This document shows positions 1 through 57,285 of a stretch of DNA of 64,000 bases, piece by piece. Position 1 is the stretch's first letter. The number at the start of each line of letters is the position of its first letter. The notes under the pieces are model-generated. The model saw only the letters and a program-made list of their open reading frames with translations. It was not told the DNA's origin and made no database searches. A program made the position numbers and the translations under genes. The stretch comes from a bacterium (lineage in GTDB: Bacteria; Patescibacteriota; Minisyncoccia; UBA6257; 02-FULL-45-10c): the NCBI GenBank assembly GCA_021786945.1, contig JAJYMK010000003.1, forward strand, positions 37,105-101,104, written 5' to 3'.

Positions 1-1205
<1,205 letters not shown>

Positions 1206-1380
1206 TAAAATTTTTACTTCGGTAAAAATTTAAGTACGATTATTTATCTTTTGATAAGTATATGAGTGTTGATCGTGGAGCTCTAAGTCACGATTCGCTA
1301 ATTCAATTTATTTTGAAGCGCGTAAGGTTGAGGTAACTAAAAAGTTTTTAAATGACTCAATTACTGCATGAATAATAAAA

Positions 1381-1404: not shown

Positions 1405-1442
1405 TTTAAAAAAATAAAGTCTTGTGATATAATATAAAAACA

Positions 1443-1814
1443 ATGGCAAAGAAAATATTATTGATTGAGGACGACCCATTTTTATCTTCTTTATTAAAAA
1501 ATAGATTTATTAAGGAGGGTTATGAAATCGTATTGGCTCAAACCGGTGATGCAGGCATCCAAGCTGCAAAACAAGGCGGGGTTGATTTGATTCTTTTAGA
1601 TCTTATTCTTCCGGGTAAGTCCGGATTTGAAGTTATGGAAGAGTTAAATATGGATCCGTTGGTCCCCAAGGTTCCTATTCTTATAATTTCCAATTTAGGA
1701 CAAGATAGTGATATAGAGAAAGGTAAGGAGCTTGGCGCTGTGGGTTATCTTATAAAAGCCAGGACATCAATTGAAACTTTAATTTCTAAAGCAAAGGAAT
1801 TTATAGGAACTTAA
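1443..1814 (+). CDS. Single-domain CheY-like response regulator receiver
   Basis: Receiver-domain motifs: LLIEDD..., the phospho-acceptor context DLILLDLILPGKSG, and a conserved Lys near the C-terminus. A TGATATAAT extended -10 lies just upstream. Confidence 0.85.
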   Translation: MAKKILLIEDDPFLSSLLKNRFIKEGYEIVLAQTGDAGIQAAKQGGVDLILLDLILPGKSGFEVMEELNMDPLVPKVPILIISNLGQDSDIEKGKELGAVGYLIKARTSIETLISKAKEFIGT

Positions 1815-2556: not shown

Positions 2557-2585
2557 ATCCCGCACAATTGTGCGGGATTTTTGTT
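2557..2585 (+). terminator. Rho-independent terminator after pilin 1
   Basis: atcccgcaca-att-tgtgcgggat followed by TTTTTGTT. Confidence 0.7.
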
Positions 2586-2631
2586 AACATTTTCATTTAT
2601 TAACTTTTTAAAATAGTTTATAATTAAATTT

Positions 2632-3234
2632 ATGAATAAAACATCGGCAAAGGGTTTTACTTTAATTGAACTTTTAATCGTTATCGCTATTTTGGCTATT
2701 TTAGCCACAGTGGTTTTGATTGTTATTAACCCGGTTCAAATGTTTGCTCAAGCCAGGGATTCTCAGAGGATTAATGATATGGCTACTTTAAATAGCGCCG
2801 TAGCTTTATATTTAACAACTGTCACATTGCCATCGTTGGAGGGTGGTGGTGGAACTTGCGCAGCAAATTTTTGGGCCACCAACGGAAGCGCAGTTAATAC
2901 CTTCGTTACTTCTTTAGTTTTACCAGCCGCCCCTTCTTTTACGGCAGCCGTAGATGGTACGGGCTGGATTCCGGTTAATTTATCTACAATTTCCGGCGGC
3001 TCTCCTTTAAGCGCTCTGCCTAGGGACCCCATAAATTCAAGTACGTATTTTTATTCTTATGCTTGTAATAATGCCAGTAAATGGTTTGAGTTTCATTCGA
3101 AAATGGAAAGCTGCAGATATAGTTATAATAATTCCGGTTGTGGAGGTGCCGGCAGTGATGATGTAGAAAGCACAGATGGAGGCCCAAACAATAATTATTA
3201 CGAAGTCGGAAATACTCCTGGTTTGGGTTTGTAA
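2632..3234 (+). CDS. Type IV major pilin paralog 2
   Basis: MNKTSAKG|FTLIELLIVIAILAILA. It has its own TATAAT ~7 nt upstream of the ATG. Confidence 0.9.
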   Translation: MNKTSAKGFTLIELLIVIAILAILATVVLIVINPVQMFAQARDSQRINDMATLNSAVALYLTTVTLPSLEGGGGTCAANFWATNGSAVNTFVTSLVLPAAPSFTAAVDGTGWIPVNLSTISGGSPLSALPRDPINSSTYFYSYACNNASKWFEFHSKMESCRYSYNNSGCGGAGSDDVESTDGGPNNNYYEVGNTPGLGL

Positions 3235-3860: not shown

Positions 3861-3880
3861 TTTATTCGAAAGGTGGATAA

Positions 3881-3910
3881 AAAGCCGTGCTTATATCACG
3901 GCTTTTTTGT
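3881..3910 (+). terminator. Rho-independent terminator after the pilin array
   Basis: aaagccgtg-cttatat-cacggcttt plus a T-run. It is followed at once by TGTTATAAT (3908-3916), 8 nt before the pilB ATG. Confidence 0.7.
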
Positions 3911-3924
3911 TATAATAAAATTAA

Positions 3925-5631
3925 ATGCAGATTCCTATACACAAACTAAAAGAGATCGTTGTCGGTGAGAATTTTATTAGTGAAGCCGATTTTGATGCTT
4001 TGACGGAAGAAGCTGCTAGATTAGGCCAGAATGTAGCTGATGTTTTGATTTCAAAAAACATTGTTTCGCATGACTATCTTGCCGATTTGCTTTCTTCTTA
4101 TTTTGGCGTTGAAAAAGCCAATCTTGCTTCCAGGCAAATTGATAAGAATATTTTACAGCTTTTGCCGGAAGAAATGGCTAGGCAAAAAAAGGTAATTGTT
4201 TTCGCCAAAGAAGATTCGGGAATTTTTGATGTGGCTATGGAGGACCCGAGCGATTTGTTGACTATAGAATTTTTAGAGCAAAATTTGGGCGGTAAAGTAA
4301 AGCCATTTTTGGCTTTGGAGGGAGATTTGAATAAAGGCTTTGCTTTGTATGGTCAGGAATTATCTCAGGATTTTAAACAAATCATCGAATCAAATATTAA
4401 GGAGTCTTTAAGAATGGGGAAGAAGGGCGATGAGGCCGCTACGGAGGTTCCTATTGTTGCCATTGTAGATAATCTAGTTTCTTACGCCTTGGCTTCCCGT
4501 GCATCAGATATTCATTTTGAAATTTTTCAGGACGGAATACTTGTCCGTTACAGGATCGACGGTGTTTTGCATGAAATTATGAAGATACCAAAAGAAGTTC
4601 ATTCCGCTATCGTTGCTCGTGTAAAACTTTTGGGCGGTTTAAAAATTGATGAACATTATAAGCCGCAGGATGGACGTTTTAGATATAGAATTTCTGGAGG
4701 TAAGGATGTGTTGGACGTAAGGGTTTCCATATTGCCCACATACTATGGCGAAAAAATAGAAATGCGTCTTTTGGCTGCAGCTCAAAGGCCGCTGTCTTTA
4801 AAGGAGGTTGGTTTACTTGAAGACCATGCGGAAATTGTGATGGAAAATATAAAAAAGAGTTACGGTATGATCCTAGTTTGTGGTCCTACGGGTTCCGGTA
4901 AAACAACTACTCTGTATTCAATTTTAGGCCTTTTAAATAAAACGGAAGTAAATATTGTTACCATTGAGGATCCTATTGAATACGATATTAAATTTATAAA
5001 TCAAACACAGATCAATCCTCAGGCCGGAGTTACTTTTGCCAGCGGATTAAGATCTATTTTGAGGCAAGACCCTAATATTATCATGGTTGGTGAAATCAGA
5101 GATCCAGAAACTGCCGATATTTCCGTGCAGGCAGCTTTGACCGGTCATTTGGTGCTTTCTTCCTTGCACACGAACGATGCTCCGACAGCAGTGCCAAGGT
5201 TGATAGATATGAATATTGTTCCTTTTTTGGTTGCAGCTGTTGTTAATATGGTTTTGGCTCAAAGACTTGTACGAAGTATTTGTCTTGAATGTATTTATTC
5301 TATGGAGCCGGATAAAGAAACAATAGATGTAATTACACGTCAGCTTAAGGAATTGGGAGTTGAGAATTTTAAAATACCGAAATTAATTTATGCCGGAAAG
5401 GGCTGTCAGGCTTGCGGCGGTACTGGCTATAGAGGCAGAACCGGTATTTTTGAAATATTGAATGTGACCGAGGATATCAGAAAGGCTATTATTAGTCCCG
5501 ATTTTTCTTTGGATACTTTAAGAAACTCAGCCAGGGCTCATGGAATGGTAAGCATGTTTGAGGATGGATTAAGAAAAGTTGAGCGTGGTATGACAACCGT
5601 CGAAGAAATTTTGAGGGTTATAAGAGAGTAG
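3925..5631 (+). CDS. pilB: Type IV pilus assembly ATPase PilB/GspE family
   Basis: Walker A GPTGSGKTTT, Asp box, His box and the C-terminal tetracysteine motif CLEC...CQACGGTGYRGRTGIFE. 568 aa. Confidence 0.92.
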   Translation: MQIPIHKLKEIVVGENFISEADFDALTEEAARLGQNVADVLISKNIVSHDYLADLLSSYFGVEKANLASRQIDKNILQLLPEEMARQKKVIVFAKEDSGIFDVAMEDPSDLLTIEFLEQNLGGKVKPFLALEGDLNKGFALYGQELSQDFKQIIESNIKESLRMGKKGDEAATEVPIVAIVDNLVSYALASRASDIHFEIFQDGILVRYRIDGVLHEIMKIPKEVHSAIVARVKLLGGLKIDEHYKPQDGRFRYRISGGKDVLDVRVSILPTYYGEKIEMRLLAAAQRPLSLKEVGLLEDHAEIVMENIKKSYGMILVCGPTGSGKTTTLYSILGLLNKTEVNIVTIEDPIEYDIKFINQTQINPQAGVTFASGLRSILRQDPNIIMVGEIRDPETADISVQAALTGHLVLSSLHTNDAPTAVPRLIDMNIVPFLVAAVVNMVLAQRLVRSICLECIYSMEPDKETIDVITRQLKELGVENFKIPKLIYAGKGCQACGGTGYRGRTGIFEILNVTEDIRKAIISPDFSLDTLRNSARAHGMVSMFEDGLRKVERGMTTVEEILRVIRE

Positions 5632-6841: not shown

Positions 6842-6884
6842 AGAGGGGTATAATTAAAATTGTTTAACACTAATTTTAAAAACA

Positions 6885-9800
6885 ATGTTCAATAAAAAGA
6901 ATAATGGTTTTACCTTGATGGAGCTTTTGGTAACTATGGGAATAGCTGTGGTTTTGGGTAGCGTTGCGATGTCTAATTATTTTAGTTATCAATCCACTGT
7001 AAGTATTGATGGAGCCGCCAACGAGCTTTTGGGTAATTTAAGGGATGCTCAACAGAGAGCGATTTCTCAAGATCAGCAATCGGCTTGGGGTGTTTATATC
7101 AATGCAGTTTCCGACGATAACGATTATTATGAATTATTTTACGGTAATAGCAGATCAACGGGGACGGTTGTTTCAAAGACTGTTTTGCCGGTTGATCTGG
7201 AGTTTTTAGTTCCGGCTCAAGGTAGTGTCTCCGAAATAAATTTCGCAAAATCTACCGGCTTGCCGAATCATGACTATACTTTAATAATTGTTTCTAAAAG
7301 AAATAGTACCTTAGCAAGAACAATTTCTTTTAATATGTCTACGGGCTTGATAGCTTCTTCTGAGAATTTGGGCTCCGGACCGACACTTTCTTCTATTACT
7401 CCAAATAGCGCCTTAAATTCAGCCCCGGTAAATATAACAGCCTTGGTGGGAACGGGTTTTCAGCAGGGTGCTTTATTGAAGTTAACAAAATCCGGAAATC
7501 CTGATTTGATTTGTACAAATATGGCTTTTGTTAATTCGGCTTTATTGACCGGCACATGTGATGTTACTGGTAAATCCGGAGGAACTTGGAATACAGTAGT
7601 TGTAAATCCTGACGGACAATCGGCAACTTTAGCTAATAGTTTTACATTGATTGGAGTTTCGGTGCCGGGATTCGTTTCTTCGTTTAGCGCTGTTGTTGGA
7701 AATCAACAATTAGTTTTGAATTGGGGAGCTCCGCTTGATAACGGGGGTGCCACAATAACCAGTTATAAAGTTTATCGTAGTACAACTTCTGGCGCAGAAA
7801 CATTGCTTACTTCCGGAGGGTGTTCTGGTCTTGGAAGTGTATTGACCTGTACTGATTCCGGTCTTACAAATGGCACAACTTATTATTATAAAATTTCTGC
7901 AGTTAATTCCGTTGGAGAAGGAGCTTTGAGTTCGGAAATAAGTTATATTCCGGCTTCGGTGCCTACAGCCCCTCAAAATTTTGCCGTATCTTCCGGCAAC
8001 CAACAATTAGTTTTGAATTGGGGAGCTCCGCTTGATAACGGGGGTGCCACAATAACCAGTTATAAAGTTTATCGTAGTACAACTTCTGGCGCAGAAACAT
8101 TGCTTACTTCCGGAGGGTGTTCTGGTCTTGGAAGTGTATTGACCTGTACTGATTCCGGTCTTACAAATGGCACAACTTATTATTATAAAATTTCTGCAGT
8201 TAATTCCGTTGGAGAAGGAGCTTTGAGTTCGGAATCTAGCGCGACTACATTTACAACGCCTACAGCCCCTCAAAATTTTGCTGCAATATCAGGAAAACAA
8301 AAAATAGTTCTTAATTGGACAGCTCCATCAAATAATGGCGGCTCTTCAATTACTAATTATGAAATATATAGAGGTGCGTCTTCCGGAGGAGAAACACTTC
8401 TAGCAGAAGTTGGTAGTGTGCTTACGTATACCGATTCAGGATTGGCAAATGGATCGACTTATTACTATAAAGTTGCGGCTAAAAATATTATTGGTATTGG
8501 TACGCAAAGTTCAGAATCCAGCGCGACTACATTAACTGAATGGCGTAGAATTTTTGTAACTAGCACTTCATATTCGGGTAATTTAGGAGGATTATCCGGC
8601 GCGGATTCGTTATGCCAGACAAGGGCTAATGCTGTTAGTCTTGGCGGGACTTGGAAGGCTTGGCTCAGTGATGAAACAACAAATGCTTCAGATAGGCTTT
8701 ATCATGATACCGTTGCATATGTAAATATGAATAATGATAAAGTCGCTAATAACTGGACTGATTTAACTGATGGAAGTTTAACATCTGCGATTCAATATAA
8801 TGAGAGCGGGGTTTCTACGGCTGGCCAAGCTTGGACTGGTAGCTATTCCGACGGAACTAAGTATTTTAGCCAAGATTGTACGGCGTGGACTTCTACAACC
8901 GGAACTGGCGGAGATGCTGGATTATCGGGTATTGTTACTAGTACAACGGGTTCGTGGTCGTATAACGGAACCAATTCTTGCAATACCAGCCTTCCATTAT
9001 ATTGCGTAGAGCAGCCTCCATTTAGTGCTCCGGATGCGCCAACTATCAATACGGTTTATGCAGGAAACAGTCGCGTATCAGTTCTTTTTTCAGCTCCGTC
9101 TTCCGACGGTGGTAGTCCTATTACTAGTTATACAGTTACATCTAATCCTGGAAATATTACCGCTAACGCTTCAGCTAGCCCAATCATAGTAACTGGATTA
9201 ACTAACGGAATCCCTTACACTTTTACTGTAACCGCTACAAATGCTATTGGTACCGGTCCAGCCTCGGTTCCTTCTAGTAGCGTTACTTTGCCTACCGTTT
9301 TTTCAAGACTTTTTGTAACGAGTTTAAAATATAATGGTAATCTAGGTGGTTTATCCGGAGCCGATGCCAAATGTCAGGCTCGTGCTGATGCCGCTAGTTT
9401 AGGTGGAATATGGAAGGCGTGGCTTAGTGATTCAACTACAGATGCTTCGGCTAGATTGTTTCATAATACAGTTCCTTATGTTGATATTTTAGGCAATCTC
9501 GTTGCAAATGATTGGACTGGGTTAACCAGTAGCAATCTTATTATGCCCATAAAATATGATGAGTTTGGTGTTGAATATACCGATCAATATTACCCTAATC
9601 CGACATCTTTAGCTGTCCATACAAACACATATGCTAATGGCACACGAATTGCAACTCAATCTGTTTATACTTGCAGCGATTGGACATATGCTTCTAATTA
9701 TGACCAATATTCTATGTGGCATGGATTTACAAGAAGATCTGATTCGACTTGGTCGTACGATCCAAATTGGTATGGATTAGGATGCCCAATTGAACAGTTC

Positions 9801-10676: not shown

Positions 10677-10736
10677 TTATTGAGCTGGGGATTGTTTCGG
10701 TTTTAGCTATTAGAATAAAGTGTTAAAATATTAATA

Positions 10737-12629
10737 ATGTCTAAAAGATTTCAAAGCGGCCAGTCGTTGATGGAAATTTTGATTGGCCTTGGAATTATCT
10801 CAATAATGGTAGGTACTTCTACCTATGCTTTGGTTACTGTTTTAAGAACCAGCTCTACCACCGAGCAAAATCAAGCAGCTGGATTAATAGGTAACAGTCT
10901 TTTGGAATCAGCTTCTACTTTAGCCGAGGCAAATTGGAACTCGATTTATAACTTACAAAAAACTTTATCTAATCATTACTATCTTGTAAGATCTTCTACT
11001 ACCACCCCAACTCCCGTTGCGGGAGATGAAAGCGTTTTGGAGCAGGATGTTACGAACGGTTTGGTTGGCTATTGGAAATTCGATGAAGCTGGCGGCAGTT
11101 ATGCCTATGATTCTTCCGGTAATGGAAATTTGGGAACACTAACGAATATACCAGATTTAAACAGCGGGCTTGTTGGATATTGGAAATTCGATGAAGGATC
11201 GGGTGCATCTGTAACTGATTTTTCCGGAAATAATAATACGGGAACCTTGGTAAATTCTCCGACATGGACTGATAGTTTAAATTGCAGATTGGGTGGATGC
11301 TTGGGTTTTAACGGATTAAATCAATATGTTCAAGTTAATAATTCTCCTTCATTAAATCCCAATAATTTAACAATTTCGGTTTGGGCTAAGAGTAATACTT
11401 CTACTTGGAATGATTATGGTTTTTTGGTTAGTAAGAGAAATGCGTATATTATTCACCCGGTTCAAGGAACTAATAGTATTGGTTTTTATATTTATACAAC
11501 AGCTTGGACATCTGTTAGTTGTAGTGCTGCAAATATTACAAATTGGAATTTGTATACCCTAACATGGAACGGAACGACTCTGAGTTGCTATGTTAATGAA
11601 ACGATGGGATATTCAAATAATCCCGGCGGATCAATAAATGTTTCTGATGGCAATAATTTAACTATTGGTAGGGATAGTACTTTATCTAGGTATTTTAATG
11701 GCTTTATCGACAATGTTCGTATTTACAACAGAGCCCTAACCGCAACTGAAGTTTCGAGGCTTTATAATATGAATGGTTGTAAGGCTGGGAGTTGTATGGT
11801 TTTTAATGGAACAAATAATTATATATCGATTCCTCACAATGCCGTTCTTACCCCAACATCAGCCTTAACAGTTTCAGTTTGGGTTAATCCCACCTCAGTT
11901 TCTTCAGCTCTTGATATTTTAAATAAAACTTGGCAGTATTCGGGCGATCTTTATTGGCTTAGAATAAATGCCGGAGGAACTATTTATTGGCATATTGGAA
12001 CTGCAGATACCGTTGCTAAGGCTATGAATACGACAGCTTCAATTCAGGCTAATAAGTGGTCGCATATTGTGGCTACTTATAATGGGTCAAAAGCTTACGT
12101 TTATATAAACGGCATTAAGGACGCTAACTCCATTACAGTTTCTCCGTCTCAAAATTTTGGCCCATCTGTTTATAAACTTGATATAGGAGTAAGACTTGTT
12201 TATTTTTCTGGTCTTATCGATGATGTTCGTATCTACAACCGTGAATTATCGGCTAGTGAAATTTCCCAAATTTATAACAGCCAGGTTTATTCGAGATATT
12301 TTTATGTAGATAATGTGAATAGGGATGTTTGTGGCTCCGGAAATATTACTACGAGTGCCCAAAGCACATGTATTGGAACGAGCGGTGTTAGCGAAGATCC
12401 GGCCACGCAAAAAATTACAGTAGGAACATACTGGAATTTAAAGGGTGTAAAACAGGTTTTGGAAAATTATATTTATGTTACTAGGTGGTTGAATAGTGCA
12501 GCGGCGCAAAATGACTGGGGCGGCACCAGCGGTGTTGATACTTCGGTTTCCAGTTTCGGAACCGATTATTACAGCGCATCAAATATTTCGGTAACAGCTT
12601 CTGGTACCATTAAAGTATCGGGGCTTTAA
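10737..12629 (+). CDS. Pseudopilin-like protein with two LamG/concanavalin-A-like lectin domains
   Basis: Pilin-like N-terminus MSKRFQSG|QSLMEILIGLGIISIMVG with Glu+5. Two LamG_3-type signatures: LVGYWKFDE(A/G)...SGNGN.GTL and GFIDNVRIYNRALTATEV / GLIDDVRIYNRELSASEI. Confidence 0.75.
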   Translation: MSKRFQSGQSLMEILIGLGIISIMVGTSTYALVTVLRTSSTTEQNQAAGLIGNSLLESASTLAEANWNSIYNLQKTLSNHYYLVRSSTTTPTPVAGDESVLEQDVTNGLVGYWKFDEAGGSYAYDSSGNGNLGTLTNIPDLNSGLVGYWKFDEGSGASVTDFSGNNNTGTLVNSPTWTDSLNCRLGGCLGFNGLNQYVQVNNSPSLNPNNLTISVWAKSNTSTWNDYGFLVSKRNAYIIHPVQGTNSIGFYIYTTAWTSVSCSAANITNWNLYTLTWNGTTLSCYVNETMGYSNNPGGSINVSDGNNLTIGRDSTLSRYFNGFIDNVRIYNRALTATEVSRLYNMNGCKAGSCMVFNGTNNYISIPHNAVLTPTSALTVSVWVNPTSVSSALDILNKTWQYSGDLYWLRINAGGTIYWHIGTADTVAKAMNTTASIQANKWSHIVATYNGSKAYVYINGIKDANSITVSPSQNFGPSVYKLDIGVRLVYFSGLIDDVRIYNRELSASEISQIYNSQVYSRYFYVDNVNRDVCGSGNITTSAQSTCIGTSGVSEDPATQKITVGTYWNLKGVKQVLENYIYVTRWLNSAAAQNDWGGTSGVDTSVSSFGTDYYSASNISVTASGTIKVSGL

Positions 12630-13509: not shown

Positions 13510-13535
13510 TTTATTTATCGTTTATTAGTTAAATT

Positions 13536-13544
13536 TGTTATAAT
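13536..13544 (+). promoter_or_regulatory. Extended -10 element TGTTATAAT within the recurrent TTGTTATAATTAAATTAAT motif
   Basis: The same 18-nt motif recurs at 57268-57285, 51563-51580, 53784-53799 and 2617-2631, and partially at 6847-6857 and 3908-3920. Confidence 0.5.
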
Positions 13545-13590
13545 TAAATTAATCCAATGTCGGGATATTAATTAATTTTTTATAAAAAAA

Positions 13591-13959: not shown

Positions 13960-13965
13960 TATTTT

Positions 13966-14391: not shown

Positions 14392-14403
14392 TTATATTGA
14401 TAT

Positions 14404-15936: not shown

Positions 15937-15942
15937 CTTAAT

Positions 15943-15970
15943 AAAAAGACGGGCCTTGTTGGCCCGTTTT
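15943..15970. terminator. Bidirectional terminator between convergent pilM and pth
   Basis: agacgggcc-ttgtt-ggcccgt flanked by A-run and T-run. Confidence 0.7.
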
Positions 15971-15971
15971 T

Positions 15972-16457
15972 TTATTTTTCTTTTGTTATTGCCGATAGCG
16001 ATTCAGCGAATACTTTATTAATAATTTCTAGATCTTCTTTTTTTATTTTTTTAAGAACAAACTCCTCGGCCTTCATTCGTTTCCCTTTTTCTTCGAGTGG
16101 CCTTATTCCAATTCTTAATCTCCAAAAATTTTTTGTGCCAAGTTTATTTATTATGTCCTGGATTCCTTTATGGCCGGCCGATGATTGATTTATCGTCAAT
16201 TTAAATTTGCCGATAACGATATCTGAATCGTCATGAATAACAAGCAGAAGCTCTGGTTTATTTCCTATTTTTTTGAATATTTTCATGGCCGAAGTTCCGG
16301 ATTCATTCATAAATCCTTGATTTTTTGCGAGTATGGCGGTTTTCGTAAAAATATCGGATTTAGTTAGAAAATCTATCATTAATTGGCCTACGTTGTGGTA
16401 GGTATTTTTATATTTAACTCCTTCATTTCCGAGTCCTAAAATTGCTTTGAAATCCAT
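15972..16457 (-). CDS. pth: Peptidyl-tRNA hydrolase (short form)
   Basis: GLGNEGVKYKNTYHNVG matches the Pth signature GLGNPG.KY..TRHN.G. 161 aa. Confidence 0.85.
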   Translation of the reverse strand: MDFKAILGLGNEGVKYKNTYHNVGQLMIDFLTKSDIFTKTAILAKNQGFMNESGTSAMKIFKKIGNKPELLLVIHDDSDIVIGKFKLTINQSSAGHKGIQDIINKLGTKNFWRLRIGIRPLEEKGKRMKAEEFVLKKIKKEDLEIINKVFAESLSAITKEK

Positions 16458-16542
16458 GTATTTATTATAGCAGGTGCCTTAAATTAGGCTATTTTTGGAG
16501 GCATTGTATTTTCTTTTTAATATAGTAAAATATAAGGAATGA

Positions 16543-18537: not shown

Positions 18538-18540
18538 ATC

Positions 18541-25829: not shown

Positions 25830-25902
25830 ACCCCCTCCTTTTTAAAGAACTCTATCTGTTTTTATATTAAAGCGGGGATAGCCCAATCGTCAAACCCATT
25901 TT

Positions 25903-27140: not shown

Positions 27141-27798
27141 TTATCTTTTTATTTTTGATAAATTTTATCAAGAATACAATGCCGTAGATAACTATGATTA
27201 TTATTAATATTCCTATACCAAGAAAAGCGCCAAGTTTGTTTTGAAATACCGAGTACCATGGTTTTTGAAAAAACACAGTTTTAATTTTATAAAGCTCGCT
27301 AAACATTTTGGGCATTTGTATTAAGGGAAAACTTTCTTTTTCCCCGACAACAAAAACATATTCTCCTTTATTCCCGGGATTAAAAACTGAAATCGTATAT
27401 TGTCCGGCGGGTAATTCTTTTTTAAATTCCGGACCCATCCAGTACCAATCTCCCCCGAATTCTTCATACCAATGTGTCCAGGTATAATTGTTTAAGCCGT
27501 CCAATTTTTTTATTTCAATTCCGTTTTCATTTGTTATTGAAGCAAATAGATTATTTTGCGGATTACCCACATCCGGAGTTAAGAGCTGTATATATAATTG
27601 AAAATCCGAAGCTGAATCTATTGAAAAATTTACCGGTTGCCCATCCAAAAATCCATAAAAAGCCTGAGAAATTTCTGGATTTATAACCGTGATTTCTTTG
27701 GCTTTATCTATGAAGTTTGGCTGGTGAGCTTCCGCTGGGCAGTAAAACATTAAAAACAATGAAAGGGTAGCCAATAAGATTATTTGTATTTTTTTCAT
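27130..27798 (-). CDS. Signal-peptide protein with C-terminal TM anchor
   Basis: N-terminal signal MKKIQIILLATLSLFLMFYCPAEA and C-terminal GILIIIIVIYGIVFLI. Confidence 0.5.
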   Translation of the reverse strand: MKKIQIILLATLSLFLMFYCPAEAHQPNFIDKAKEITVINPEISQAFYGFLDGQPVNFSIDSASDFQLYIQLLTPDVGNPQNNLFASITNENGIEIKKLDGLNNYTWTHWYEEFGGDWYWMGPEFKKELPAGQYTISVFNPGNKGEYVFVVGEKESFPLIQMPKMFSELYKIKTVFFQKPWYSVFQNKLGAFLGIGILIIIIVIYGIVFLIKFIKNKKINAK

Positions 27799-27858
27799 AA
27801 TATAAATTATAACAAAAAAACAACCTGTTTTTATCGAGCTGTTTTTTTAAAAAAATAA

Positions 27859-28264: not shown

Positions 28265-28555
28265 TTATTTAGGTAATTTACCAAATCTTTTTTCTGTATA
28301 AATTATTCTCCACCAATATCGTCCGGCAAAAAAACCCCATACAATTCCGAATATTAAAAAGCTTATTAAGAAAACGAGGGTAGGGGGATAGCCGCTGTAC
28401 CAGATTATATTTTTTTCGGAATGCAGCAATTTTTGCAATACCAGTACTTGTGCAAAAAACAATACAAAATAGTTTATGAGTAATCCAAATATAGATGCGG
28501 CAGCTAGATAAACAATTCGTTTTATTTTCAATGAGCTTTTAGGTTGTATTTGCAT
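28265..28555 (-). CDS. Small membrane protein (3 TM)
   Basis: Hydrophobic profile only. Confidence 0.4.
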   Translation of the reverse strand: MQIQPKSSLKIKRIVYLAAASIFGLLINYFVLFFAQVLVLQKLLHSEKNIIWYSGYPPTLVFLISFLIFGIVWGFFAGRYWWRIIYTEKRFGKLPK

Positions 28556-28632
28556 ATAATTATTATATTAAATTTTTGATATTTATTGTAAGCATTGTTT
28601 TCCCGCGGATGATATAATTAATAATAAGGATT

Positions 28633-32191: not shown

Positions 32192-32878
32192 TTGTTCGTT
32201 TTTATAATATATAATAAAAACATGTTTAAGCAGCCATCGAATAATAGGGATTGGGAAAAAGATCAAAAAATTTTAGCGCATGCAATGATCGAGAGCGGCA
32301 AAATTTCTTTGTTTAATATCCGTAATTTTAAATACCGTTCCGAATTCGATTACGAAGTTGATTATTGTAGCCAAGTTTTTGAGATAGATAGGTTAATTGA
32401 TGTTAGTTTGGGCATTGTCGCTTTCTCTAAGAATCCTTTATTAGCTCATATTCTAACTACATTTGAATTTGCGGACGGTAAATCGGTGGTTTTTTCAATT
32501 GAAGTCCGCAAGCAGAAAGACCAGAAATTCATCGCCTGGCAGACAGCATTTAATAATTATGAGCTTATGTATGTCGTTGCGACGAGATCGGATGTAATTG
32601 ATTTACGCAATAAGCATCGAAAAAATGAACGTGTTGTCGAGTACAAACTAAATTTAGATCAAGACCAAAAATGCCGATTGTTCTTAGATTTTTGTATTCG
32701 GTTAAATCAACTTAAAGGTGGTCCGGAATTTTTTAATCTTTTCTACAATAGTTGCAGCAGTAACGCGATAAATCATTTAAATAAAGTATTGGATTGGAAA
32801 GTGCCATGGTTTTATAAATATTTAGCTCCTGGTTATTTAGATAAGGCATTAGGAAATCGAAAAATAATAAATCAATAG
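32192..32878 (+). CDS. DUF4105-like protein
   Basis: C-terminal motif FYNSCSSNAINHL resembles the DUF4105 Y.x.NNC(T/S) signature. Confidence 0.4.
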   Translation: MFVFIIYNKNMFKQPSNNRDWEKDQKILAHAMIESGKISLFNIRNFKYRSEFDYEVDYCSQVFEIDRLIDVSLGIVAFSKNPLLAHILTTFEFADGKSVVFSIEVRKQKDQKFIAWQTAFNNYELMYVVATRSDVIDLRNKHRKNERVVEYKLNLDQDQKCRLFLDFCIRLNQLKGGPEFFNLFYNSCSSNAINHLNKVLDWKVPWFYKYLAPGYLDKALGNRKIINQ

Positions 32879-32996: not shown

Positions 32997-33611
32997 TTAA
33001 TAATTAAAATTGGTGCGATAGCCGACAAATGATCCGTCGGGATTCAGGTTGACTGTAAGCCCATAATTTCCGGTCTGGCAATGATTAGTGCAATAATAAT
33101 GTTCAATGTAATAACTCAGGGTTCCGCCGCCGTTCGGATTGAGAAAATCACGGTAATATAAACAGATGTCGGCTTTTAGATGCTCATAAGTGCTGACTTT
33201 TTGCTCTTGCATCAATTTGTCTATTAATTCGGTCAATTGATAGTTATTATCTGGAGAATAATTTTTTATTTTACCGTAAAACGCGCCGTTATTAAAAGTC
33301 TCCAGAGAAGCGATCTCAAAGATCGTTTGCGGAAGTTTTTCTTCCGGTGTAATGACATTTCGTTCAACGGTGAATTTTTCCATACATTTCTTACCGCCTA
33401 GCGTTCCCACTACGCCCTGGGATTCCGCATCTCCGGTTTTAGCGGTGCTTGGCGGATAATTATTCTTATCCACAGAAAGATTTTGATTACCGGAATTATT
33501 TGCGGACGATGTCGGTTTAGTGATATTTTTTAGGATAAACCAATTTACGGCTATTGCTGTAATAATTAAAACAATGACTAATAACAATGGATACAAAATT
33601 TTTTTGTTCAT
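32997..33611 (-). CDS. N-terminally anchored or secreted protein, unknown
   Basis: N-terminal TM (ILYPLLLVIVLIITAIAVNWFIL) and a Cys-containing C-terminal domain. Confidence 0.45.
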   Translation of the reverse strand: MNKKILYPLLLVIVLIITAIAVNWFILKNITKPTSSANNSGNQNLSVDKNNYPPSTAKTGDAESQGVVGTLGGKKCMEKFTVERNVITPEEKLPQTIFEIASLETFNNGAFYGKIKNYSPDNNYQLTELIDKLMQEQKVSTYEHLKADICLYYRDFLNPNGGGTLSYYIEHYYCTNHCQTGNYGLTVNLNPDGSFVGYRTNFNY

Positions 33612-33717
33612 ATTTTAATTATACTACTAAAAAAGCTCTAACTATATTTCTGGATATAAAAATAACCATCATAAAAATAGGTTATTTTTCAGAGCTCGCC
33701 AAGTCGTGTTGGAGAAA

Positions 33718-34563
33718 TTAAATATTTTGGTCGTATTTTTCTTTGAATTCTTTAAAACTCATAGAAACAGTTTTACCGTTTACAAAAGCAACTCCCGGGC
33801 CAAGATATGTATTTTTACCGTCTCTGATATTTTTTTGTTTTTCCCTGAAATTAGTATGGGCCGTTGGCTCTTTTTCCGGTTTAGTATTTTCAATTCCTGG
33901 GATTTTATCAGCAAAATCATCCCAAATATTTTTCCACTCTTCTAGAATTACCGCTTCTTCTTTTAATGGATGAAGTGTAATGGTCGTTCTATCATTGGAT
34001 TCTTTAATAGATATTTCTATTTTTTTATTTTTAAAATATTCAATAATTGATTCTGGTATTTTAACTTCTTTATTATAAACATCTACGAATTGATCCCTAA
34101 TTGAAGACTCTTTAAAACCCGATTGAAATGTATTGTATCCCTTTTTTCTTAGCATAAATACAGCGTTACTAACCTGGGATTCTAATTCATCTTTATATGC
34201 GCCGGCATTAAGTTCTTCTTCGTCGGCAAGGGGATTCTCCACGAGCCTTTGCTCACGTCTTTTAAAAGAATCTTCTCTTTCGCTTAAGCGTTGAAATTTT
34301 TCTATAAATAAAGTTTTATTTTTAATTGCACTATCCCATTCCTCAATATTTTTTTTGATTTCAGCGCTATTTAAATCTTTATAAAGAAAAGACATTTCTT
34401 CTTTTAACTTGTTAAAGTCTGAGTAGTGACTGTAAATATAATCTTTAATCGGACTTTTTTCCGGTAAATATCTATTGGAAGCATCGAGCATCATATTCTT
34501 AATTTTCTCAACATCGTTGTTTGTTACCCCTTCTTTTTGTTGTTTTTGTTCAAATTTTTCCAT
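33718..34563 (-). CDS. Charged hypothetical protein
   Basis: Long ORF with native AT-rich codon usage and no recognizable motif. Confidence 0.45.
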   Translation of the reverse strand: MEKFEQKQQKEGVTNNDVEKIKNMMLDASNRYLPEKSPIKDYIYSHYSDFNKLKEEMSFLYKDLNSAEIKKNIEEWDSAIKNKTLFIEKFQRLSEREDSFKRREQRLVENPLADEEELNAGAYKDELESQVSNAVFMLRKKGYNTFQSGFKESSIRDQFVDVYNKEVKIPESIIEYFKNKKIEISIKESNDRTTITLHPLKEEAVILEEWKNIWDDFADKIPGIENTKPEKEPTAHTNFREKQKNIRDGKNTYLGPGVAFVNGKTVSMSFKEFKEKYDQNI

Positions 34564-34716
34564 ATAAAAATTATATCAATTATCTAAATTTAAAAAAGAC
34601 CCCGAAATTAAATTTCGAGGCATTTCCAGAGACTCACGACTGGGCTCGCTGTCTGGGACGATGTTGGAACCCTTTTTGGGGTAAAAGAGAGGGTGGGCGA
34701 GTAAGTTTAGGTTATA

Positions 34717-35572: not shown

Positions 35573-36202
35573 TTATGTTAGGTTTTTTACAACACCTTCT
35601 ATATTTGGATAATATTTATTGAAAATTGTATCTACCCCATTAGTTTTTATAGGAATATTTTGCATAGTTGCTACATCGGGAATTATTCTGGAAAGAACTA
35701 GATCTACAATTCTTTCTTTTACCCAATGGTCAACATTATATTTATCAATAAGTTTTTGTATGGATAGGTGCACCATTTCATGAATCAAGGCCTTGGAAAC
35801 CCCTATGCCGAATCTACCTTGAATATTAACGATTATTTTATTAGGAAGATTATAACTTCCAGCACTTCCATATTTTGTTAGTTCTATTAAGTAAAAATCT
35901 TCCGGAACCAAAGAAGCCTCTTCAAAATATTGTTCTAGTTTTGGCGAAAATTTAACCCATTGTTTTTTGACTATTTCTTCTACGTCGTTAAAGTCTTTTT
36001 GATTGTATTCTTTTTCAGCTTTATTTAATAAAATATCTATGGACTTGTTTCCATCAATATCTGTTAATTTAATATTTTCTGGTAGCTTTATCCAATTCGA
36101 ATAACCGTTTTTAATATACCAATCGGACTTATCCAATGTATGCTTAATACGCTCCTTTTCACATTCAGGTGAATATTTAAATTTTAAAGCAATATTTTTC
36201 AT
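35573..36202 (-). CDS. Putative zinc-dependent peptidase-like protein (HExxH)
   Basis: LIHEMVHLSIQ is a HExxH motif. Native AT-rich composition. Confidence 0.4.
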   Translation of the reverse strand: MKNIALKFKYSPECEKERIKHTLDKSDWYIKNGYSNWIKLPENIKLTDIDGNKSIDILLNKAEKEYNQKDFNDVEEIVKKQWVKFSPKLEQYFEEASLVPEDFYLIELTKYGSAGSYNLPNKIIVNIQGRFGIGVSKALIHEMVHLSIQKLIDKYNVDHWVKERIVDLVLSRIIPDVATMQNIPIKTNGVDTIFNKYYPNIEGVVKNLT

Positions 36203-36260
36203 GCATTAATTATATCAAAATATCCCCATTTAAGAAGCTATTTACCATACAGTATATTAG

Positions 36261-40952: not shown

Positions 40953-41716
40953 TTTCCGTAAAAAATTTAGAGTTTAGGTACGGAAGCAGGGAGGTTTTCT
41001 CGGGCGTTTCTTTTGATATAGAAAGAGGTGACTATGTCGGTGTGGCGGGGCAGAATGGATCCGGTAAAACTACTTTAATTAAATCAATTCTAGGTTTAAT
41101 TAAGCCGCAAAAAGGAGAGATTTTTATAGATGGTGTTCCATCTGGTAAATTTAAAGATTGGTATAAGATTGGCTACCTGCCTCAAAGTTTGACACTTTCA
41201 AAATCAATTTTTCCCGCTACGGTTAAAGAGGTCGTGTCTCTCGGTCTTTTAAGCAGGAAGTCGTTTCCGAAAAGAATTACGAGTTCAGATGACGAAAAAA
41301 TATTGGAAGTTTTAAAAATATTAAAAATTGAATCGATTAAGGATAAATTGATTGGAGAATTATCTGGCGGGCAGCAGCAACGTGTCTTTTTGGCCCACGC
41401 CTTAGTAAGTGATCCGGAAATTTTAATATTGGATGAACCAACTACGGCGCTGGATCCGGAAATTAGGGAAAATTTTTTTGAAACTCTTCGCAGACTCAAC
41501 AGGGATAAAAAAGTTACTATACTCCTAATAAGTCATGACGTTAGTCATATTGGTAATTATGCAGAAAAGCTTCTTTATATAGATAAAAAAGAAGTGTTTT
41601 TTGGATCTTTTAAGAATTTCTGCCAATCCAAAGAAATGGAAAATTATTTCGGCGAACATTTGCAGCATTTTATTTGCCATCAGCATGATGAAGAATCTGG
41701 ACATAAACATTTATAA
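40943..41716 (+). CDS. znuC: Metal ABC transporter ATPase with His-rich C-terminal tail
   Basis: Walker A GQNGSGKTT, LSGGQQQR and ILILDEPT. Tail HFICHQHDEESGHKH. Confidence 0.85.
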   Translation: MPIISVKNLEFRYGSREVFSGVSFDIERGDYVGVAGQNGSGKTTLIKSILGLIKPQKGEIFIDGVPSGKFKDWYKIGYLPQSLTLSKSIFPATVKEVVSLGLLSRKSFPKRITSSDDEKILEVLKILKIESIKDKLIGELSGGQQQRVFLAHALVSDPEILILDEPTTALDPEIRENFFETLRRLNRDKKVTILLISHDVSHIGNYAEKLLYIDKKEVFFGSFKNFCQSKEMENYFGEHLQHFICHQHDEESGHKHL

Positions 41717-41722
41717 TTATTT

Positions 41723-42517
41723 ATGAATATCCTAGAAATAATACAATTCGCATTTGTTCAGAAAGCTTTCATAGCCGGTAGCTTTGTTGCCATGCTCTGC
41801 TCAATTTTGGGATTATTTTTAGTTCTTCAAAAGATGTCTTTGATAGGCGATGGTTTGTCGCATGTAAGTTTTGGTGCAGTAGCCCTCGGAATATTTTTTG
41901 GAATTTACCCTATATATTTTGCCCTGCCCGTCGTGGCTTTGGCCTCGGTTTTGATTTTAAAATTAGCCAAGAAAGGAAGGCTCTATAAGGATACCGCTAT
42001 AGGTATAGTTTCGGCCACGGGAATAGCCGGCGGTGTTATTATTGCCAGTATCGCAGGAGGATTCAATGTTGATCTATTCAGTTATTTATTTGGAAATATT
42101 TTGGCGATAAGTAATGCTGAAGTTATTATTTCTATAGCATTGTCACTTATAGTTTTGGCGATTGTTTATTTCTTTTATTACGATCTTTTTTCGATTACCT
42201 TCAATGAAGATTATGCAAAAACAACCGGAGTTAAAACCGAACTTATAAATTCTTTGTTGGTTGTTCTTACCGCAATTACCGCCGTGTTAGCCGTAAAAGT
42301 TGTTGGTGTTATGCTTGTTTCTGCTCTTTTGATAATTCCGGCTACAACAGCCCTACAATTTAAAGCCGGATTCAAAGCGACTATTTTCCTTGCGGCTATA
42401 TTTTCCATTTTTTCGGTTTTGGCGGGCATTATTTTATCTATAATTTTAAATATACCGGCGGGAGCATCTATTGTAATGATAAGCCTTGTTTTATTTGCAA
42501 TTTCTTTGCTTTTTTAG
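41723..42517 (+). CDS. znuB: Metal ABC transporter permease (ZnuB-like)
   Basis: 8-TM ABC-3 family permease profile. Confidence 0.8.
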   Translation: MNILEIIQFAFVQKAFIAGSFVAMLCSILGLFLVLQKMSLIGDGLSHVSFGAVALGIFFGIYPIYFALPVVALASVLILKLAKKGRLYKDTAIGIVSATGIAGGVIIASIAGGFNVDLFSYLFGNILAISNAEVIISIALSLIVLAIVYFFYYDLFSITFNEDYAKTTGVKTELINSLLVVLTAITAVLAVKVVGVMLVSALLIIPATTALQFKAGFKATIFLAAIFSIFSVLAGIILSIILNIPAGASIVMISLVLFAISLLF

Positions 42518-51556: not shown

Positions 51557-51600
51557 AATAATTGTTATAATTAAATTATTAAAATTAAATCAATAAAATT

Positions 51601-53341: not shown

Positions 53342-53350
53342 TTTAAAAAC

Positions 53351-53791: not shown

Positions 53792-53796
53792 TTAAA

Positions 53797-57266: not shown

Positions 57267-57269
57267 AAT

Positions 57270-57278
57270 TGTTATAAT
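57270..57278 (+). promoter_or_regulatory. Extended -10 TGTTATAAT, 7 nt upstream of the ATG at 57286 (leaderless-type promoter)
   Basis: Same TTGTTATAATTAAATTAAT motif as at 13536. Confidence 0.5.
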
Positions 57279-57285
57279 TAAATTA

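What the first reader, a model, noticed from the sequence alone, without database searches (positions are those of the whole stretch)
13534..13551. Recurrent extended -10 motif TTGTTATAATTAAATTAAT placed ~7 nt before ATG: leaderless transcripts
The same ~18-nt motif occurs at 13534, 57268, 51563, 53784 and 2617, and partially before pilB (3908) and the giant pilin (6847). In four cases the ATG begins 6-8 nt after TATAAT (2632, 3925, 53800, 57286). The transcription start would then coincide with the start codon. This fits the missing anti-SD, and the conserved TAAATTAAT downstream of the -10 may be a lineage-specific discriminator element.
Basis: partly seen in the sequence, partly recalled or inferred. 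Interest (0 to 1): 0.5.

Follow-up and report, generated by a model that had tools for sequence, protein, structure and literature searches.

The report
Promoters placed directly against start codons
The repeated 19-base motif is the strongest version of this bacterium's ordinary promoter, and in about a quarter of its genes that promoter sits 6-8 bases before the ATG, so the messenger RNA probably starts at the start codon itself, in an organism whose ribosome has lost the usual mRNA-docking sequence.

Summary
TTGTTATAATTAAATTAAT occurs exactly at 13535 and 57269, and with 1-3 mismatches at 51562, 3907 and 53783. That is 6 hits against 0.42 expected.

It is a sigma-70-type extended -10 promoter (TGnTATAAT) with an A/T-only start to the discriminator and no -35 element.

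An exact TATAAT lies 5-9 nt before the first ATG of 14 of 61 genes, on both strands (p about 2e-8; shuffles give 0.9). This holds for 9 of the 27 genes that have at least 60 nt of ORF-free upstream DNA.

The same peak appears in 17 related Paceibacterota (CPR) loci and in 20 independent metagenome contigs whose 16S also lacks the anti-SD.

Other results point the same way:
- TG is enriched before these boxes.
- Terminator hairpins abut three of the promoters.
- Pilin leader peptides fix several of the start codons.
- SD motifs are not enriched upstream of genes.

Leaderless transcription is therefore well supported, but it is unproven without mapped 5' ends.

Two corrections. The flagged site (13535), and also 51562 and 6849, drive leadered genes, with the ATG 46, 29 and 30 nt after the -10. 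TAAATTAAT is not a conserved lineage-specific element.

The architecture is a known kind (GeneMarkS-2 'group C') in a lineage where I found no report of it.

The parts
13535..13553 (+). Exact 19-mer and the flagged site. TG at 13536-13537, TATAAT at 13539-13544. Promoter of the operon 13591-15936 (two small membrane proteins plus a PilM/PilN fusion). The ATG at 13591 is 46 nt after the -10, so this transcript is leadered (about 40 nt).
57269..57287 (+). Exact 19-mer. TATAAT at 57273-57278. The ATG at 57286 (PAS-domain protein) follows a 7-nt gap, so this is a leaderless candidate. The motif fills the 19-nt gap after the upstream P-type ATPase gene.
51562..51580 (+). 19-mer with 1 mismatch. TATAAT at 51566-51571. 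The ATG at 51601 is 29 nt after the -10, so this transcript is leadered.
3876..3927 (+). Terminator hairpin (dG -14.1 kcal/mol, z -3.6). Its T-run continues into TTGTTATAAT (19-mer with 2 mismatches at 3907-3925; TATAAT at 3911-3916). After an 8-nt gap comes the pilB ATG at 3925. Any pilB-specific transcript must start within 20 nt of the ATG.
   Evidence: the arrangement is conserved in relatives
53783..53802 (+). 19-mer with 3 mismatches and no TG. TATAAT at 53787-53792. The ATG at 53800 (metallophosphoesterase) follows a 7-nt gap. The TAA stop of the upstream gene lies inside the TATAAT, so this is a weaker, operon-internal case.
2557..2634 (+). Terminator hairpin at 2557-2578 (dG -16.1 kcal/mol), then TATAATTAAATT at 2619-2630, then after a 7-nt gap the ATG at 2632 of a pilin. 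The pilin start is fixed by its prepilin leader MNKTSAKG|FTLIELL.
6845..6887 (+). Partial motif (13/19). TATAAT at 6849-6854. The ATG at 6885 of the 1248-aa pilin is 30 nt downstream, so this transcript is leadered.
1425..1445 (+). TGATATAAT, a 9-nt gap, then the ATG at 1443 (response regulator). A terminator hairpin at 1375-1403 precedes it.
10721..10739 (+). TGTTAAAAT (5/6 match to the -10, with TG), a 7-nt gap, then the ATG at 10737 of a pseudopilin (MSKRFQSG|QSLMEIL).
16455..16472 (-). TGCTATAAT, a 6-nt gap, then the ATG of peptidyl-tRNA hydrolase.
27796..27814 (-). TGTTATAAT, a 7-nt gap, then the ATG of a hypothetical protein.
28553..28570 (-). TATAAT, a 6-nt gap, then the ATG of a 96-aa hypothetical protein.
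32210..32224 (+). TATAAT, a 6-nt gap, then the ATG at 32222 (Lnb_N-domain protein). A TTG 30 nt upstream is an alternative, less likely start.
33609..33626 (-). TATAAT, a 6-nt gap, then the ATG of a hypothetical protein.
34561..34578 (-). TGATATAAT, a 6-nt gap, then the ATG of a hypothetical protein.
36200..36217 (-). TGATATAAT, a 6-nt gap, then the ATG of a hypothetical protein.
41712..41725 (+). TATAAT, a 5-nt gap, then the ATG at 41723 (ABC-3 permease). The box overlaps the TAA stop of the upstream ABC ATPase gene. This is a weaker, operon-internal case.
53337..53353 (+). TATAAT, an 8-nt gap, then the ATG at 53351 (PEBP). The box overlaps the upstream TAA stop. This is a weaker, operon-internal case.
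1..1206 (+). 3' 1.2 kb of the 16S rRNA. The tail at 1193-1206 reads GGATCATTTTATTT: CCTCC is replaced by TTTTA, so there is no anti-Shine-Dalgarno sequence.

Best explanation
The 19-mer is the near-consensus form of this organism's housekeeping (sigma-70-type) promoter. It consists of an extended -10 element (T-T-G-T-TATAAT), no recognisable -35, and a discriminator whose first four bases are always A or T.

RNA polymerase opens the -10 and starts 6-9 nt after its last T. In roughly a quarter of all genes, and about a third of genes that head a transcription unit, the ATG occupies exactly that position (gap of 5-9 nt, mode 6-7). The mRNA then begins with, or within about 3 nt of, AUG.

Such leaderless mRNAs are bound at the 5'-AUG by ribosomes carrying initiator tRNA and need no Shine-Dalgarno pairing. 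That fits a ribosome whose 16S 3' tail has lost CCUCC, and a genome with no SD enrichment.

The same promoter also drives leadered transcripts. The flagged site 13535, and also 51562 and 6849, have 20-40-nt A-rich, SD-free leaders.

What is shown: motif enrichment, the positional peak, TG enrichment, abutting terminators, conservation in relatives, absence of the anti-SD and absence of SD enrichment.

What is inferred: promoter activity, the exact transcription start, and the mode of ribosome recruitment.
For: - Motif enrichment: 6 against 0.42 expected.
- Positional peak in the window: exact TATAAT 5-9 nt before the first ATG in 14/61 genes. 14 of the 27 upstream TATAATs fall in that 5-position window (binomial p = 1.7e-8). 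2000 shuffles give a mean of 0.89 and a maximum of 5. The reverse-complement control ATTATA gives only 2 hits.
- Restricted to genes with >=60 nt of ORF-free upstream DNA: 9/27 genes, p = 1e-5.
- The same peak in PilB-containing loci of relatives: 27/48 at gaps 6-8 in L009-L021, 6/7 at gaps 5-9 in L005-L008, none in a Verrucomicrobia (Opitutia) outgroup locus. The restricted analysis gives p = 1.6e-10.
- The same peak in 20 independent contigs with Parcubacteria-type anti-SD-less 16S: 12/24 at gaps 6-9, with SD-like motifs in only 8/120 ORFs.
- TG at -15/-14 in 7/13 short-gap boxes against 7/102 other TATAATs (Fisher p = 9e-5). In relatives 12/33 against 23/258 (p = 9e-5).
- The PWM shows T-15 and G-14, no -35, and A/T-only bases at -6 to -3.
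- Stable terminator hairpins end 5-40 nt before the boxes of genes 1443, 2632 and 3925.
- The terminator + TGnTAxxxT + 8-10 nt + ATG arrangement is conserved upstream of pilB at 60% protein identity, although the DNA sequence itself has diverged.
- Start codons are independently fixed by prepilin leader peptides, and about 10 of 37 pilin genes have a -10-like box 7-9 nt upstream. Pfam domain boundaries also fix starts for Pth, the response regulator and ABC-3.
- The genome's rRNA promoter is a perfect TTGACA-16-TATAAT, so its RNA polymerase reads the canonical -10.
- No anti-SD and no SD enrichment (GGAG 4 against 3.2 expected).
- The architecture matches the published definition of leaderless 'group C' genomes: Pribnow box 6-8 nt from the start, 25-50% of operons (PMC6028130).
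Against: - No 5'-end data exist for this organism or any Paceibacterota. The only CPR transcription-start set found is for N. lyticus and was inferred from RNA-seq coverage (PMC12641261).
- Three short-gap cases (41712, 53337, 53787) lie in 6-9-nt operon junctions where the upstream TAA stop is part of the TATAAT. They lack TG and could be partly compositional.
- Pyrimidine at -1 is no more frequent in the short-gap class than at other genes.
- The pilB relatives L005 and L006 have a 10-nt gap, which suggests a 2-3-nt leader rather than none.
- The flagged site itself is not leaderless.
- I could not compare CPR genomes that keep the anti-SD, so the link between anti-SD loss and leaderless starts is co-occurrence only.
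Confidence: 0.75

Rival explanations
1. RNA-level signal. The A/U-rich block UAUAAU(N7) acts within longer transcripts as a non-SD ribosome-binding or enhancer element (for example through protein S1, or by pairing with the U-rich 16S tail), not as a promoter.
For: - Four sites lie in very short intergenic gaps inside apparent operons (41712, 53337, 53787, 57273).
- The organism must have some SD-independent way to start translation at internal genes.
- Upstream regions of the other genes are about 50% A.
Against: - TG one base upstream of the hexamer is strongly enriched. That is a contact for sigma and has no role in translation.
- Terminators directly precede three of the boxes.
- Most short-gap boxes sit in long or divergent intergenic regions.
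- UAUAAU is not complementary to the 16S tail.
- Complementarity of upstream regions to the tail is no better than to a reversed-sequence control.
- The tail is not conserved among anti-SD-less relatives.
- The gap distribution (mode 6-7) is that of -10-to-start-site distances.
Confidence: 0.08
2. Operator or regulon motif. The 19-mer, which contains the palindrome ATTAA-A-TTAAT, is the binding site of a transcription factor that co-regulates a gene set such as the type IV pilus/competence genes.
For: - Two copies are identical over 19 nt, and five share the 12-mer TATAATTAAATT. That is more than position-independent promoter frequencies predict (about 0.8 expected of 27).
- Three copies precede pilus genes (2632, 3925, 13591).
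Against: - The other copies precede unrelated genes: a beta-flower protein, a metallophosphoesterase and a PAS protein.
- The part downstream of the -10 is not conserved at orthologous pilB or pilin promoters of relatives.
- TAAATTAAT alone is not enriched.
- In A/T-only sequence such palindromes are trivial.
- The same 19-mer occurs in unrelated phages as a plain promoter.
Confidence: 0.05
3. Composition artefact. A/T-rich intergenic DNA plus TAA stop codons create TATAAT near start codons by chance.
For: - Intergenic DNA is 72% A+T.
- In three cases the TAA stop of the preceding gene is part of the TATAAT.
Against: - Shuffles of the same upstream regions give 0.9 against 14 observed.
- The reverse-complement hexamer is nearly absent.
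- The peak persists when the whole 60-nt upstream region is ORF-free.
- The peak persists in relatives with 48-55% GC (L007, L008, L013).
- The peak is at gaps 6-7, not at the frame-linked gaps 5/8/11 that an in-frame TAA would favour.
Confidence: 0.03
4. Copied promoter cassette. The near-identical 19-mers arose by duplication or recombination of a short promoter segment, not by independent selection. This is compatible with the best explanation and concerns only the origin of the identity.
For: - 19/19 identity at 13535 and 57269, and 18/19 at 51562.
- There is an excess of the exact 12-mer.
Against: - Identity stops sharply at the motif edges, and the flanks are unrelated.
- 19 nt is too short to show homology, and strong selection for a consensus promoter gives the same picture.
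Confidence: 0.09

Closest known systems
Leaderless-gene architecture of 'group C' bacteria (GeneMarkS-2 classification; Mycobacterium, Streptomyces, Deinococcus)
   Same: - A Pribnow box sits 6-8 nt before the start codon of first genes in operons.
- 25-50% of operons are affected (PMC6028130). The window has 9/27 = 33%.
- AUG starts, with no SD in front of these genes.
   Different: - In group C the remaining genes use SD sites. Here SD is not enriched at all and the 16S has no anti-SD.
- The genome is A/T-rich, and the promoters are TGn-extended with a full TATAAT rather than the degenerate TANNNT of actinobacteria (the latter from my own knowledge).
- The lineage (CPR, Paceibacterota) is not among those reported.
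Extended -10 (TGnTATAAT) promoters of E. coli and the TRTG '-16 region' promoters of Gram-positive bacteria
   Same: - TG at -15/-14 directly before a consensus -10.
- No need for a -35.
- The exact 19-mer is found in unrelated A/T-rich phages as such a promoter.
   Different: In those systems the promoter is followed by a leader with an SD. Here the start codon occupies the transcription start position in many cases.
Anti-SD-less 16S rRNA in a subgroup of Parcubacteria (Tsurumaki et al. 2022, RNA; PMC9297842)
   Same: - The CCUCCU motif is absent from the 16S 3' end. The paper reports detection in only 48% of Parcubacteria.
- The window's helix 45 and tail match other such sequences.
   Different: The paper leaves open how translation starts in these lineages. 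The promoter-to-ATG arrangement described here is a candidate answer for part of the genes.
SD-independent initiation in Bacteroidota ('group B', A-rich non-SD leaders)
   Same: The non-leaderless genes here have A-rich, G/C-poor upstream regions and no SD.
   Different: Bacteroidota keep the anti-SD sequence and mostly make leadered mRNAs (my own knowledge, and PMC6028130). Here the anti-SD is deleted, and many genes have no room for a leader.
Mammalian mitochondrial translation (leaderless mRNAs, 12S rRNA without anti-SD)
   Same: A small-subunit rRNA lacking the anti-SD is combined with mRNAs that begin at or next to AUG (my own knowledge).
   Different: There the 5' ends come from processing of polycistronic precursors, not from promoters placed at each gene. 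The resemblance is an analogy only.

Membership tests
sigma-70-type extended -10 promoter | -10 hexamer matching TATAAT | tested here: met
sigma-70-type extended -10 promoter | TG dinucleotide at -15/-14 (TGn directly before the hexamer) | tested here: met
   Present at 13535, 57269, 51562 and 3907; absent at 53783, 2615 and 6845. Across the class, 7/13 short-gap boxes have it against 7/102 other TATAATs, Fisher p = 9e-5.
sigma-70-type extended -10 promoter | Strand-specific location upstream of genes | tested here: met
   27 TATAATs lie within 60 nt upstream of starts, against 2 for the reverse complement.
sigma-70-type extended -10 promoter | -35 element dispensable | tested here: met
   A PWM of 27 promoters shows no information at -25 to -4 relative to the hexamer, apart from TG. 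The rRNA promoter of the same genome does have TTGACA.
sigma-70-type extended -10 promoter | Directs transcription initiation 6-9 nt downstream | not testable with these tools
   Needs in vitro transcription or 5'-end mapping.
Leaderless mRNA gene (group C-type architecture) | -10 box 6-8 nt upstream of the start codon | tested here: met
   Met for 14/61 genes, including 2632, 3925, 53800 and 57286. NOT met at the flagged site 13535 (46 nt), at 51562 (29 nt) or at 6849 (30 nt).
Leaderless mRNA gene (group C-type architecture) | Mapped mRNA 5' end at, or within 5 nt of, the start codon | not testable with these tools
   No transcriptome is available. The literature search found no start-site data for Paceibacterota.
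Leaderless mRNA gene (group C-type architecture) | Start codon correctly assigned | tested here: met
   Prepilin leader peptides fix 2632 and 10737. PilB N-termini align from residue 1 in relatives. Pfam domains begin within 13 residues of the ATG for the response regulator, Pth, ABC-3 and PEBP.
Leaderless mRNA gene (group C-type architecture) | Remaining genes use Shine-Dalgarno sites (part of the group C description) | tested here: not met
   SD-like motifs are at chance level upstream of starts. The 16S lacks CCUCC.
Lineage-specific discriminator element TAAATTAAT | Over-represented downstream of the -10 in this genome | tested here: inconclusive
   TAAATT follows 5 of 27 upstream TATAATs (p about 1e-7 against the intergenic background), and the first 4 nt are always A/T. 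The full 9-mer follows only 2 boxes, and alone it is not enriched.
Lineage-specific discriminator element TAAATTAAT | Conserved in related genomes | tested here: not met
   33 short-gap promoters of relatives have varied discriminators. Only the first base or two are mostly A/T.
Anti-SD-less Parcubacteria 16S rRNA | No CCUCC after GGAUCA at the 3' end | tested here: met
   The tail GGATCATTTTATTT is aligned to the end of the Rfam SSU model. It is identical in three independent assemblies.
Anti-SD-less Parcubacteria 16S rRNA | Parcubacteria/Paceibacterota affiliation | tested here: met
   The closest PilB loci are titled Candidatus Paceibacterota, Nomurabacteria or Taylorbacteria. The helix 45 sequence is identical to 8 metagenomic anti-SD-less 16S genes. 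No formal 16S phylogeny was done.

The most novel reading that the evidence does not exclude
In the Paceibacterota that deleted the anti-SD, translation initiation has been rewired as a whole. Promoter-proximal genes are made as leaderless mRNAs from a compact 'promoter-start cassette' (TGnTATAAT + A/T discriminator + ATG). In this cassette a preferred discriminator (TAAATTA in this species) fixes the start site on the A of AUG. All other genes rely on re-initiation or on A-rich leaders that interact with the new U-rich 16S tail. On this reading, loss of the anti-SD and gain of leaderless starts are causally linked in this clade.
Probability: 0.2. Interest if true: 0.65.

Novelty: new member of a known kind. 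Interest (0 to 1): 0.45.

Why it matters
A large branch of the candidate phyla radiation has ribosomes without the anti-Shine-Dalgarno sequence. The paper that reported this left open how their mRNAs are recognised (PMC9297842).

The promoter-against-ATG arrangement is seen in this window, in 17 related loci and in 20 independent anti-SD-less contigs. It gives a concrete, testable answer for about a third of transcription units.

It also has practical consequences:
- Gene-start prediction in these genomes should use a leaderless model.
- Intergenic promoters can be read directly from sequence.
- Heterologous expression of CPR genes needs added ribosome-binding sites.

The mechanism itself is well known from actinobacteria, Deinococcus and archaea, so this extends a known mechanism to a new lineage and does not change it.

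Tried and rejected
1. Alternative SD pairing with the U-rich 16S tail (AAAUAAAAUGAU). Upstream regions match it slightly better than shuffles do (mean longest match 5.57 against 5.19), but a reversed, non-complementary control matches equally well. The tail also varies among anti-SD-less relatives. Rejected as unsupported.

2. Pyrimidine at -1 as a start-site signature. No difference from other genes.

3. A -35 element. None in the PWM. The generic promoter scan found fewer hits than its shuffles (35 against 51.5) because it requires a -35.

4. TAAATTAAT as an independent motif. Not enriched.

5. A pilus/competence regulon. The downstream genes are functionally mixed.

6. RNA structure around the operon-internal motifs at 57230-57300 and 53750-53815. 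No better than shuffles.

7. Scan of viral contigs for the 19-mer. 15 unrelated A/T-rich phage contigs carry it, mostly as ordinary promoters and none with a long ORF starting at the 7-nt gap. The 19-mer is therefore not lineage-specific.

8. Metagenome scan for 16S tails without C after GGATCA. About 100 of the 120 hits were eukaryotic 18S/ITS1. Only 20 were Parcubacteria-type.

9. Rfam search of relatives' loci for 16S genes to check their anti-SD. None were present.

10. Literature searches linking leaderless mRNAs to CPR, Patescibacteria, Parcubacteria or Saccharibacteria. The only co-occurrences were reference-list citations (mostly GeneMarkS-2) and one remark that YchF promotes leaderless translation; none reports leaderless architecture in CPR.

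Full report
**What the window is.** Bases 1-1206 are the 3' part of a bacterial 16S rRNA. The rest holds about 61 genes at 33-41% GC. They include a type IV pilus cluster and housekeeping genes. The same sequence is in the MAG GCA_027372035.1 and in three other assemblies. The nearest PilB relatives are titled Candidatus Paceibacterota, Nomurabacteria or Taylorbacteria, which places it in the Parcubacteria branch of the candidate phyla radiation.

**The observation.**
- TTGTTATAATTAAATTAAT is exact at 13535-13553 and 57269-57287. It has 1 mismatch at 51562, 2 at 3907 and 3 at 53783.
- That is 6 hits at <=3 mismatches against 0.42 expected.
- The sites at 2615 (15/19) and 6845 (13/19) are only partial.
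- At the flagged site the first possible start codon of the downstream ORF is 13591, 46 nt after the -10. An in-frame stop lies just before it.
- 51562 and 6849 are also followed by 29-30-nt leaders.

**What the motif is.** I aligned all 27 TATAAT boxes that lie within 60 nt upstream of a gene.
- There is no information in the -35 region.
- T and G are strong at -15/-14.
- The four bases after the hexamer are exclusively A or T.
- TG precedes 7 of 13 start-proximal boxes but only 7 of the other 102 TATAATs in the window (p = 9e-5). In relatives the figures are 12/33 against 23/258.
- The hexamer's reverse complement is almost absent upstream of genes.
- The rRNA promoter of the same genome is a perfect TTGACA-16-TATAAT, so the polymerase reads canonical elements.

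The 19-mer is therefore the near-consensus extended -10 promoter of this organism. The genes behind its copies are unrelated: pilins, PilB, a beta-flower protein, a metallophosphoesterase and a PAS protein. It is not a regulon signal. The identical 19-mer also occurs in 15 unrelated A/T-rich phage contigs, mostly as a plain promoter in front of SD-led genes.

**The larger pattern.**
- An exact TATAAT lies 5-9 nt before the first ATG of 14 of 61 genes, on both strands. The modes are 6 and 7 nt.
- 14 of the 27 upstream TATAATs fall in that five-position window (p = 1.7e-8). 2000 shuffles of the upstream regions give a mean of 0.89 and never more than 5.
- A/T-rich DNA is confined to short intergenic gaps, which could bias the result. 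I therefore repeated the test on genes whose whole 60-nt upstream region is ORF-free: 9 of 27 genes, p = 1e-5.
- The gaps are those expected between a -10 and a transcription start. They are not the 5/8/11 series that an in-frame TAA inside TATAAT would favour.

**Independent anchors.**
- Terminator hairpins: stable hairpins end just before the promoters of genes 1443, 2632 and 3925 (dG -13.5, -16.1 and -14.1 kcal/mol; none of 200 shuffles folds as well).
- pilB: the terminator's T-run runs into TTGTTATAAT, so a pilB transcript can only begin within 20 nt of the ATG.
- Conservation at pilB: the arrangement 'hairpin, TGnTAxxxT, 8-10 nt, ATG' is kept upstream of pilB in relatives with 60% protein identity, although the DNA has diverged.
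- Pilin starts: prepilin leader peptides fix these start codons, and about 10 of 37 pilin genes across all loci have a -10-like box 7-9 nt upstream.
- Other starts: Pfam domain boundaries fix several more.

**Comparative evidence.**
- Loci L009-L021: 27 of 48 TATAAT-to-ATG gaps are 6-8 nt.
- Loci L005-L008: 6 of 7 gaps are 5-9 nt.
- Outgroup: a Verrucomicrobia (Opitutia) locus has none.
- ORF-free restriction: this gives p = 1.6e-10.
- GC content: the signal persists in relatives with 48-55% GC.
- SD-like motifs: they precede only 12 of 234 ORFs in these relatives.
- Metagenome scan: a scan for 16S tails without C after GGATCA returned mostly eukaryotic 18S. It also returned 20 contigs with a Parcubacteria-type helix 45 and A/U-rich tails.
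- Those 20 contigs: in their 135 kb, 12 of 24 gaps are 6-9 nt, and SD-like motifs precede 8 of 120 ORFs.

**The anti-SD.** The 16S ends GGATCATTTTATTT where CCTCC is expected. The tail is identical in three independent assemblies. SD-like motifs are at chance level upstream of the window's genes (GGAG 4 against 3.2 expected; GGAGG 2 against 0.8). Loss of the anti-SD motif in about half of Parcubacteria is already published, with the consequence for initiation left open (PMC9297842).

**The proposed discriminator.**
- TAAATT follows 5 of 27 boxes, far more than the intergenic background predicts.
- The full TAAATTAAT follows only two boxes and is not enriched on its own.
- Relatives have varied sequences there.
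- An A/T-only start to the discriminator is real. A conserved lineage-specific element is not supported.
- Why five promoters share the exact 12-mer remains unexplained. It could be a species-specific optimum, an overlapping second TAnnnT box, or copied cassettes.

**Mechanism.**
- *Shown:* promoter-like boxes sit at start-site distance from validated ATGs in about a quarter of genes. They are strand-specific, TG-enriched and conserved in position across a clade, in genomes with neither an anti-SD nor SD enrichment.
- *Inferred:* RNA polymerase starts on or within about 3 nt of the A of AUG. The resulting leaderless mRNAs are recruited through the 5'-AUG and initiator tRNA without SD pairing.
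- The same promoters elsewhere give 15-40-nt A-rich leaders, as at the flagged site.
- Internal genes, often 1-10 nt from the preceding stop, must use some other SD-independent route.
- I tested pairing of A-rich leaders with the U-rich 16S tail. It was no better than a reversed-sequence control.

**Weak points.**
- No 5' ends are mapped. The only CPR start-site set found is for N. lyticus and was inferred from RNA-seq coverage.
- Three operon-internal cases (41712, 53337, 53787) lack TG and incorporate the upstream TAA stop.
- I could not examine CPR genomes that retain the anti-SD, so the link to its loss is co-occurrence only.

**Comparison and novelty.** The architecture matches GeneMarkS-2 'group C': a Pribnow box 6-8 nt from starts, and 25-50% of operons (PMC6028130). 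That group was described for Actinobacteria and Deinococcus-Thermus. It differs here in that the remaining genes have no SD. In the searched library the two topics co-occur only in reference lists (mostly GeneMarkS-2) and in one remark on YchF; no paper reports leaderless architecture in CPR, Patescibacteria, Parcubacteria or Saccharibacteria. Subscription journals were not covered. I rate it a new member of a known kind, of moderate interest.

Noticed in passing
window 1193-1231: The 16S 3' tail reads GGATCATTTTATTT (no CCTCC). A perfect hairpin with a UUCG loop follows immediately (AAAATTTTTAC-TTCG-GTAAAAATTT). No tRNA or 23S follows; instead there is a response-regulator gene and a pilus cluster, so the rRNA genes are unlinked.
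   Followed up: partly
window 18520-18540, 25830-25845(-), 47245-47260, 49085-49099: Four genes carry good-looking SD-like G-runs at the right distance (AAAAGGAGGG, AAAAGGAGGGGGT, AAGGGGGAATAA, AAAGGGGGATAA), although the ribosome has no anti-SD. This is not significant overall, but none of the four genes has a nearby -10 box.
   Followed up: partly
loci L101, L141, L114, L106, L100, L086, L044, L111, L064, L131, L063, L107, L062, L046, L038, L025, L045, L130, L027, L074: Parcubacteria-type 16S genes without an anti-SD have A/U-rich but non-conserved tails after GGATCA. Examples: AATTAAACT in 8 contigs (all with helix 45 identical to the window's) and ATTTTTTT(T)AAAAA in 5. This argues against a single replacement anti-SD.
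   Followed up: partly
window 6885-10631, 10737-12629 and 38544-40043: Unusual pilin-like proteins:
- A 1248-aa pilin with five fn3 repeats plus DUF1554 and endostatin-like domains.
- A 630-aa pseudopilin with Laminin_G_3.
- A 499-aa protein that combines an N-terminal Smr domain, an internal prepilin N-methylation motif (residues 96-117) and Laminin_G_3.
   Followed up: no
window 41712-41717, 53337-53342, 53787-53792: In three tight operon junctions the TAA stop codon of the upstream gene is embedded in the TATAAT that sits 5-8 nt before the next ATG. One hexamer would then serve as stop-codon context and as a putative internal promoter.
   Followed up: partly
window 13557-13571: A four-codon mini-ORF (ATG TCG GGA TAT TAA) and a small AUCC/GGAU hairpin lie at the 5' end of the predicted ~40-nt leader of the flagged promoter.
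   Followed up: no
L001 5404-5431: The rRNA promoter of the same genome is a perfect TTGACA-16 nt-TATAAT. It is the only promoter I saw with a clear -35. The divergent L31 gene has TATAAT 9 nt before its ATG.
   Followed up: partly
window 42518-42830: The longest uvrB ORF starts with TTG after a 310-nt gap that contains no convincing -10 near the start. The true start or promoter of uvrB is unclear.
   Followed up: no
window 15940-15976: A strong bidirectional terminator (16-bp stem) lies between the convergent pilM/N operon and the pth gene.
   Followed up: no
loci L144-L158 (viral contigs): The exact 19-mer occurs in 15 phage contigs of 24-47% GC, and twice in L148 within a longer repeated segment. 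Several occurrences are classic TTGACA-17-TGnTATAAT promoters followed by SD-led genes.
   Followed up: partly
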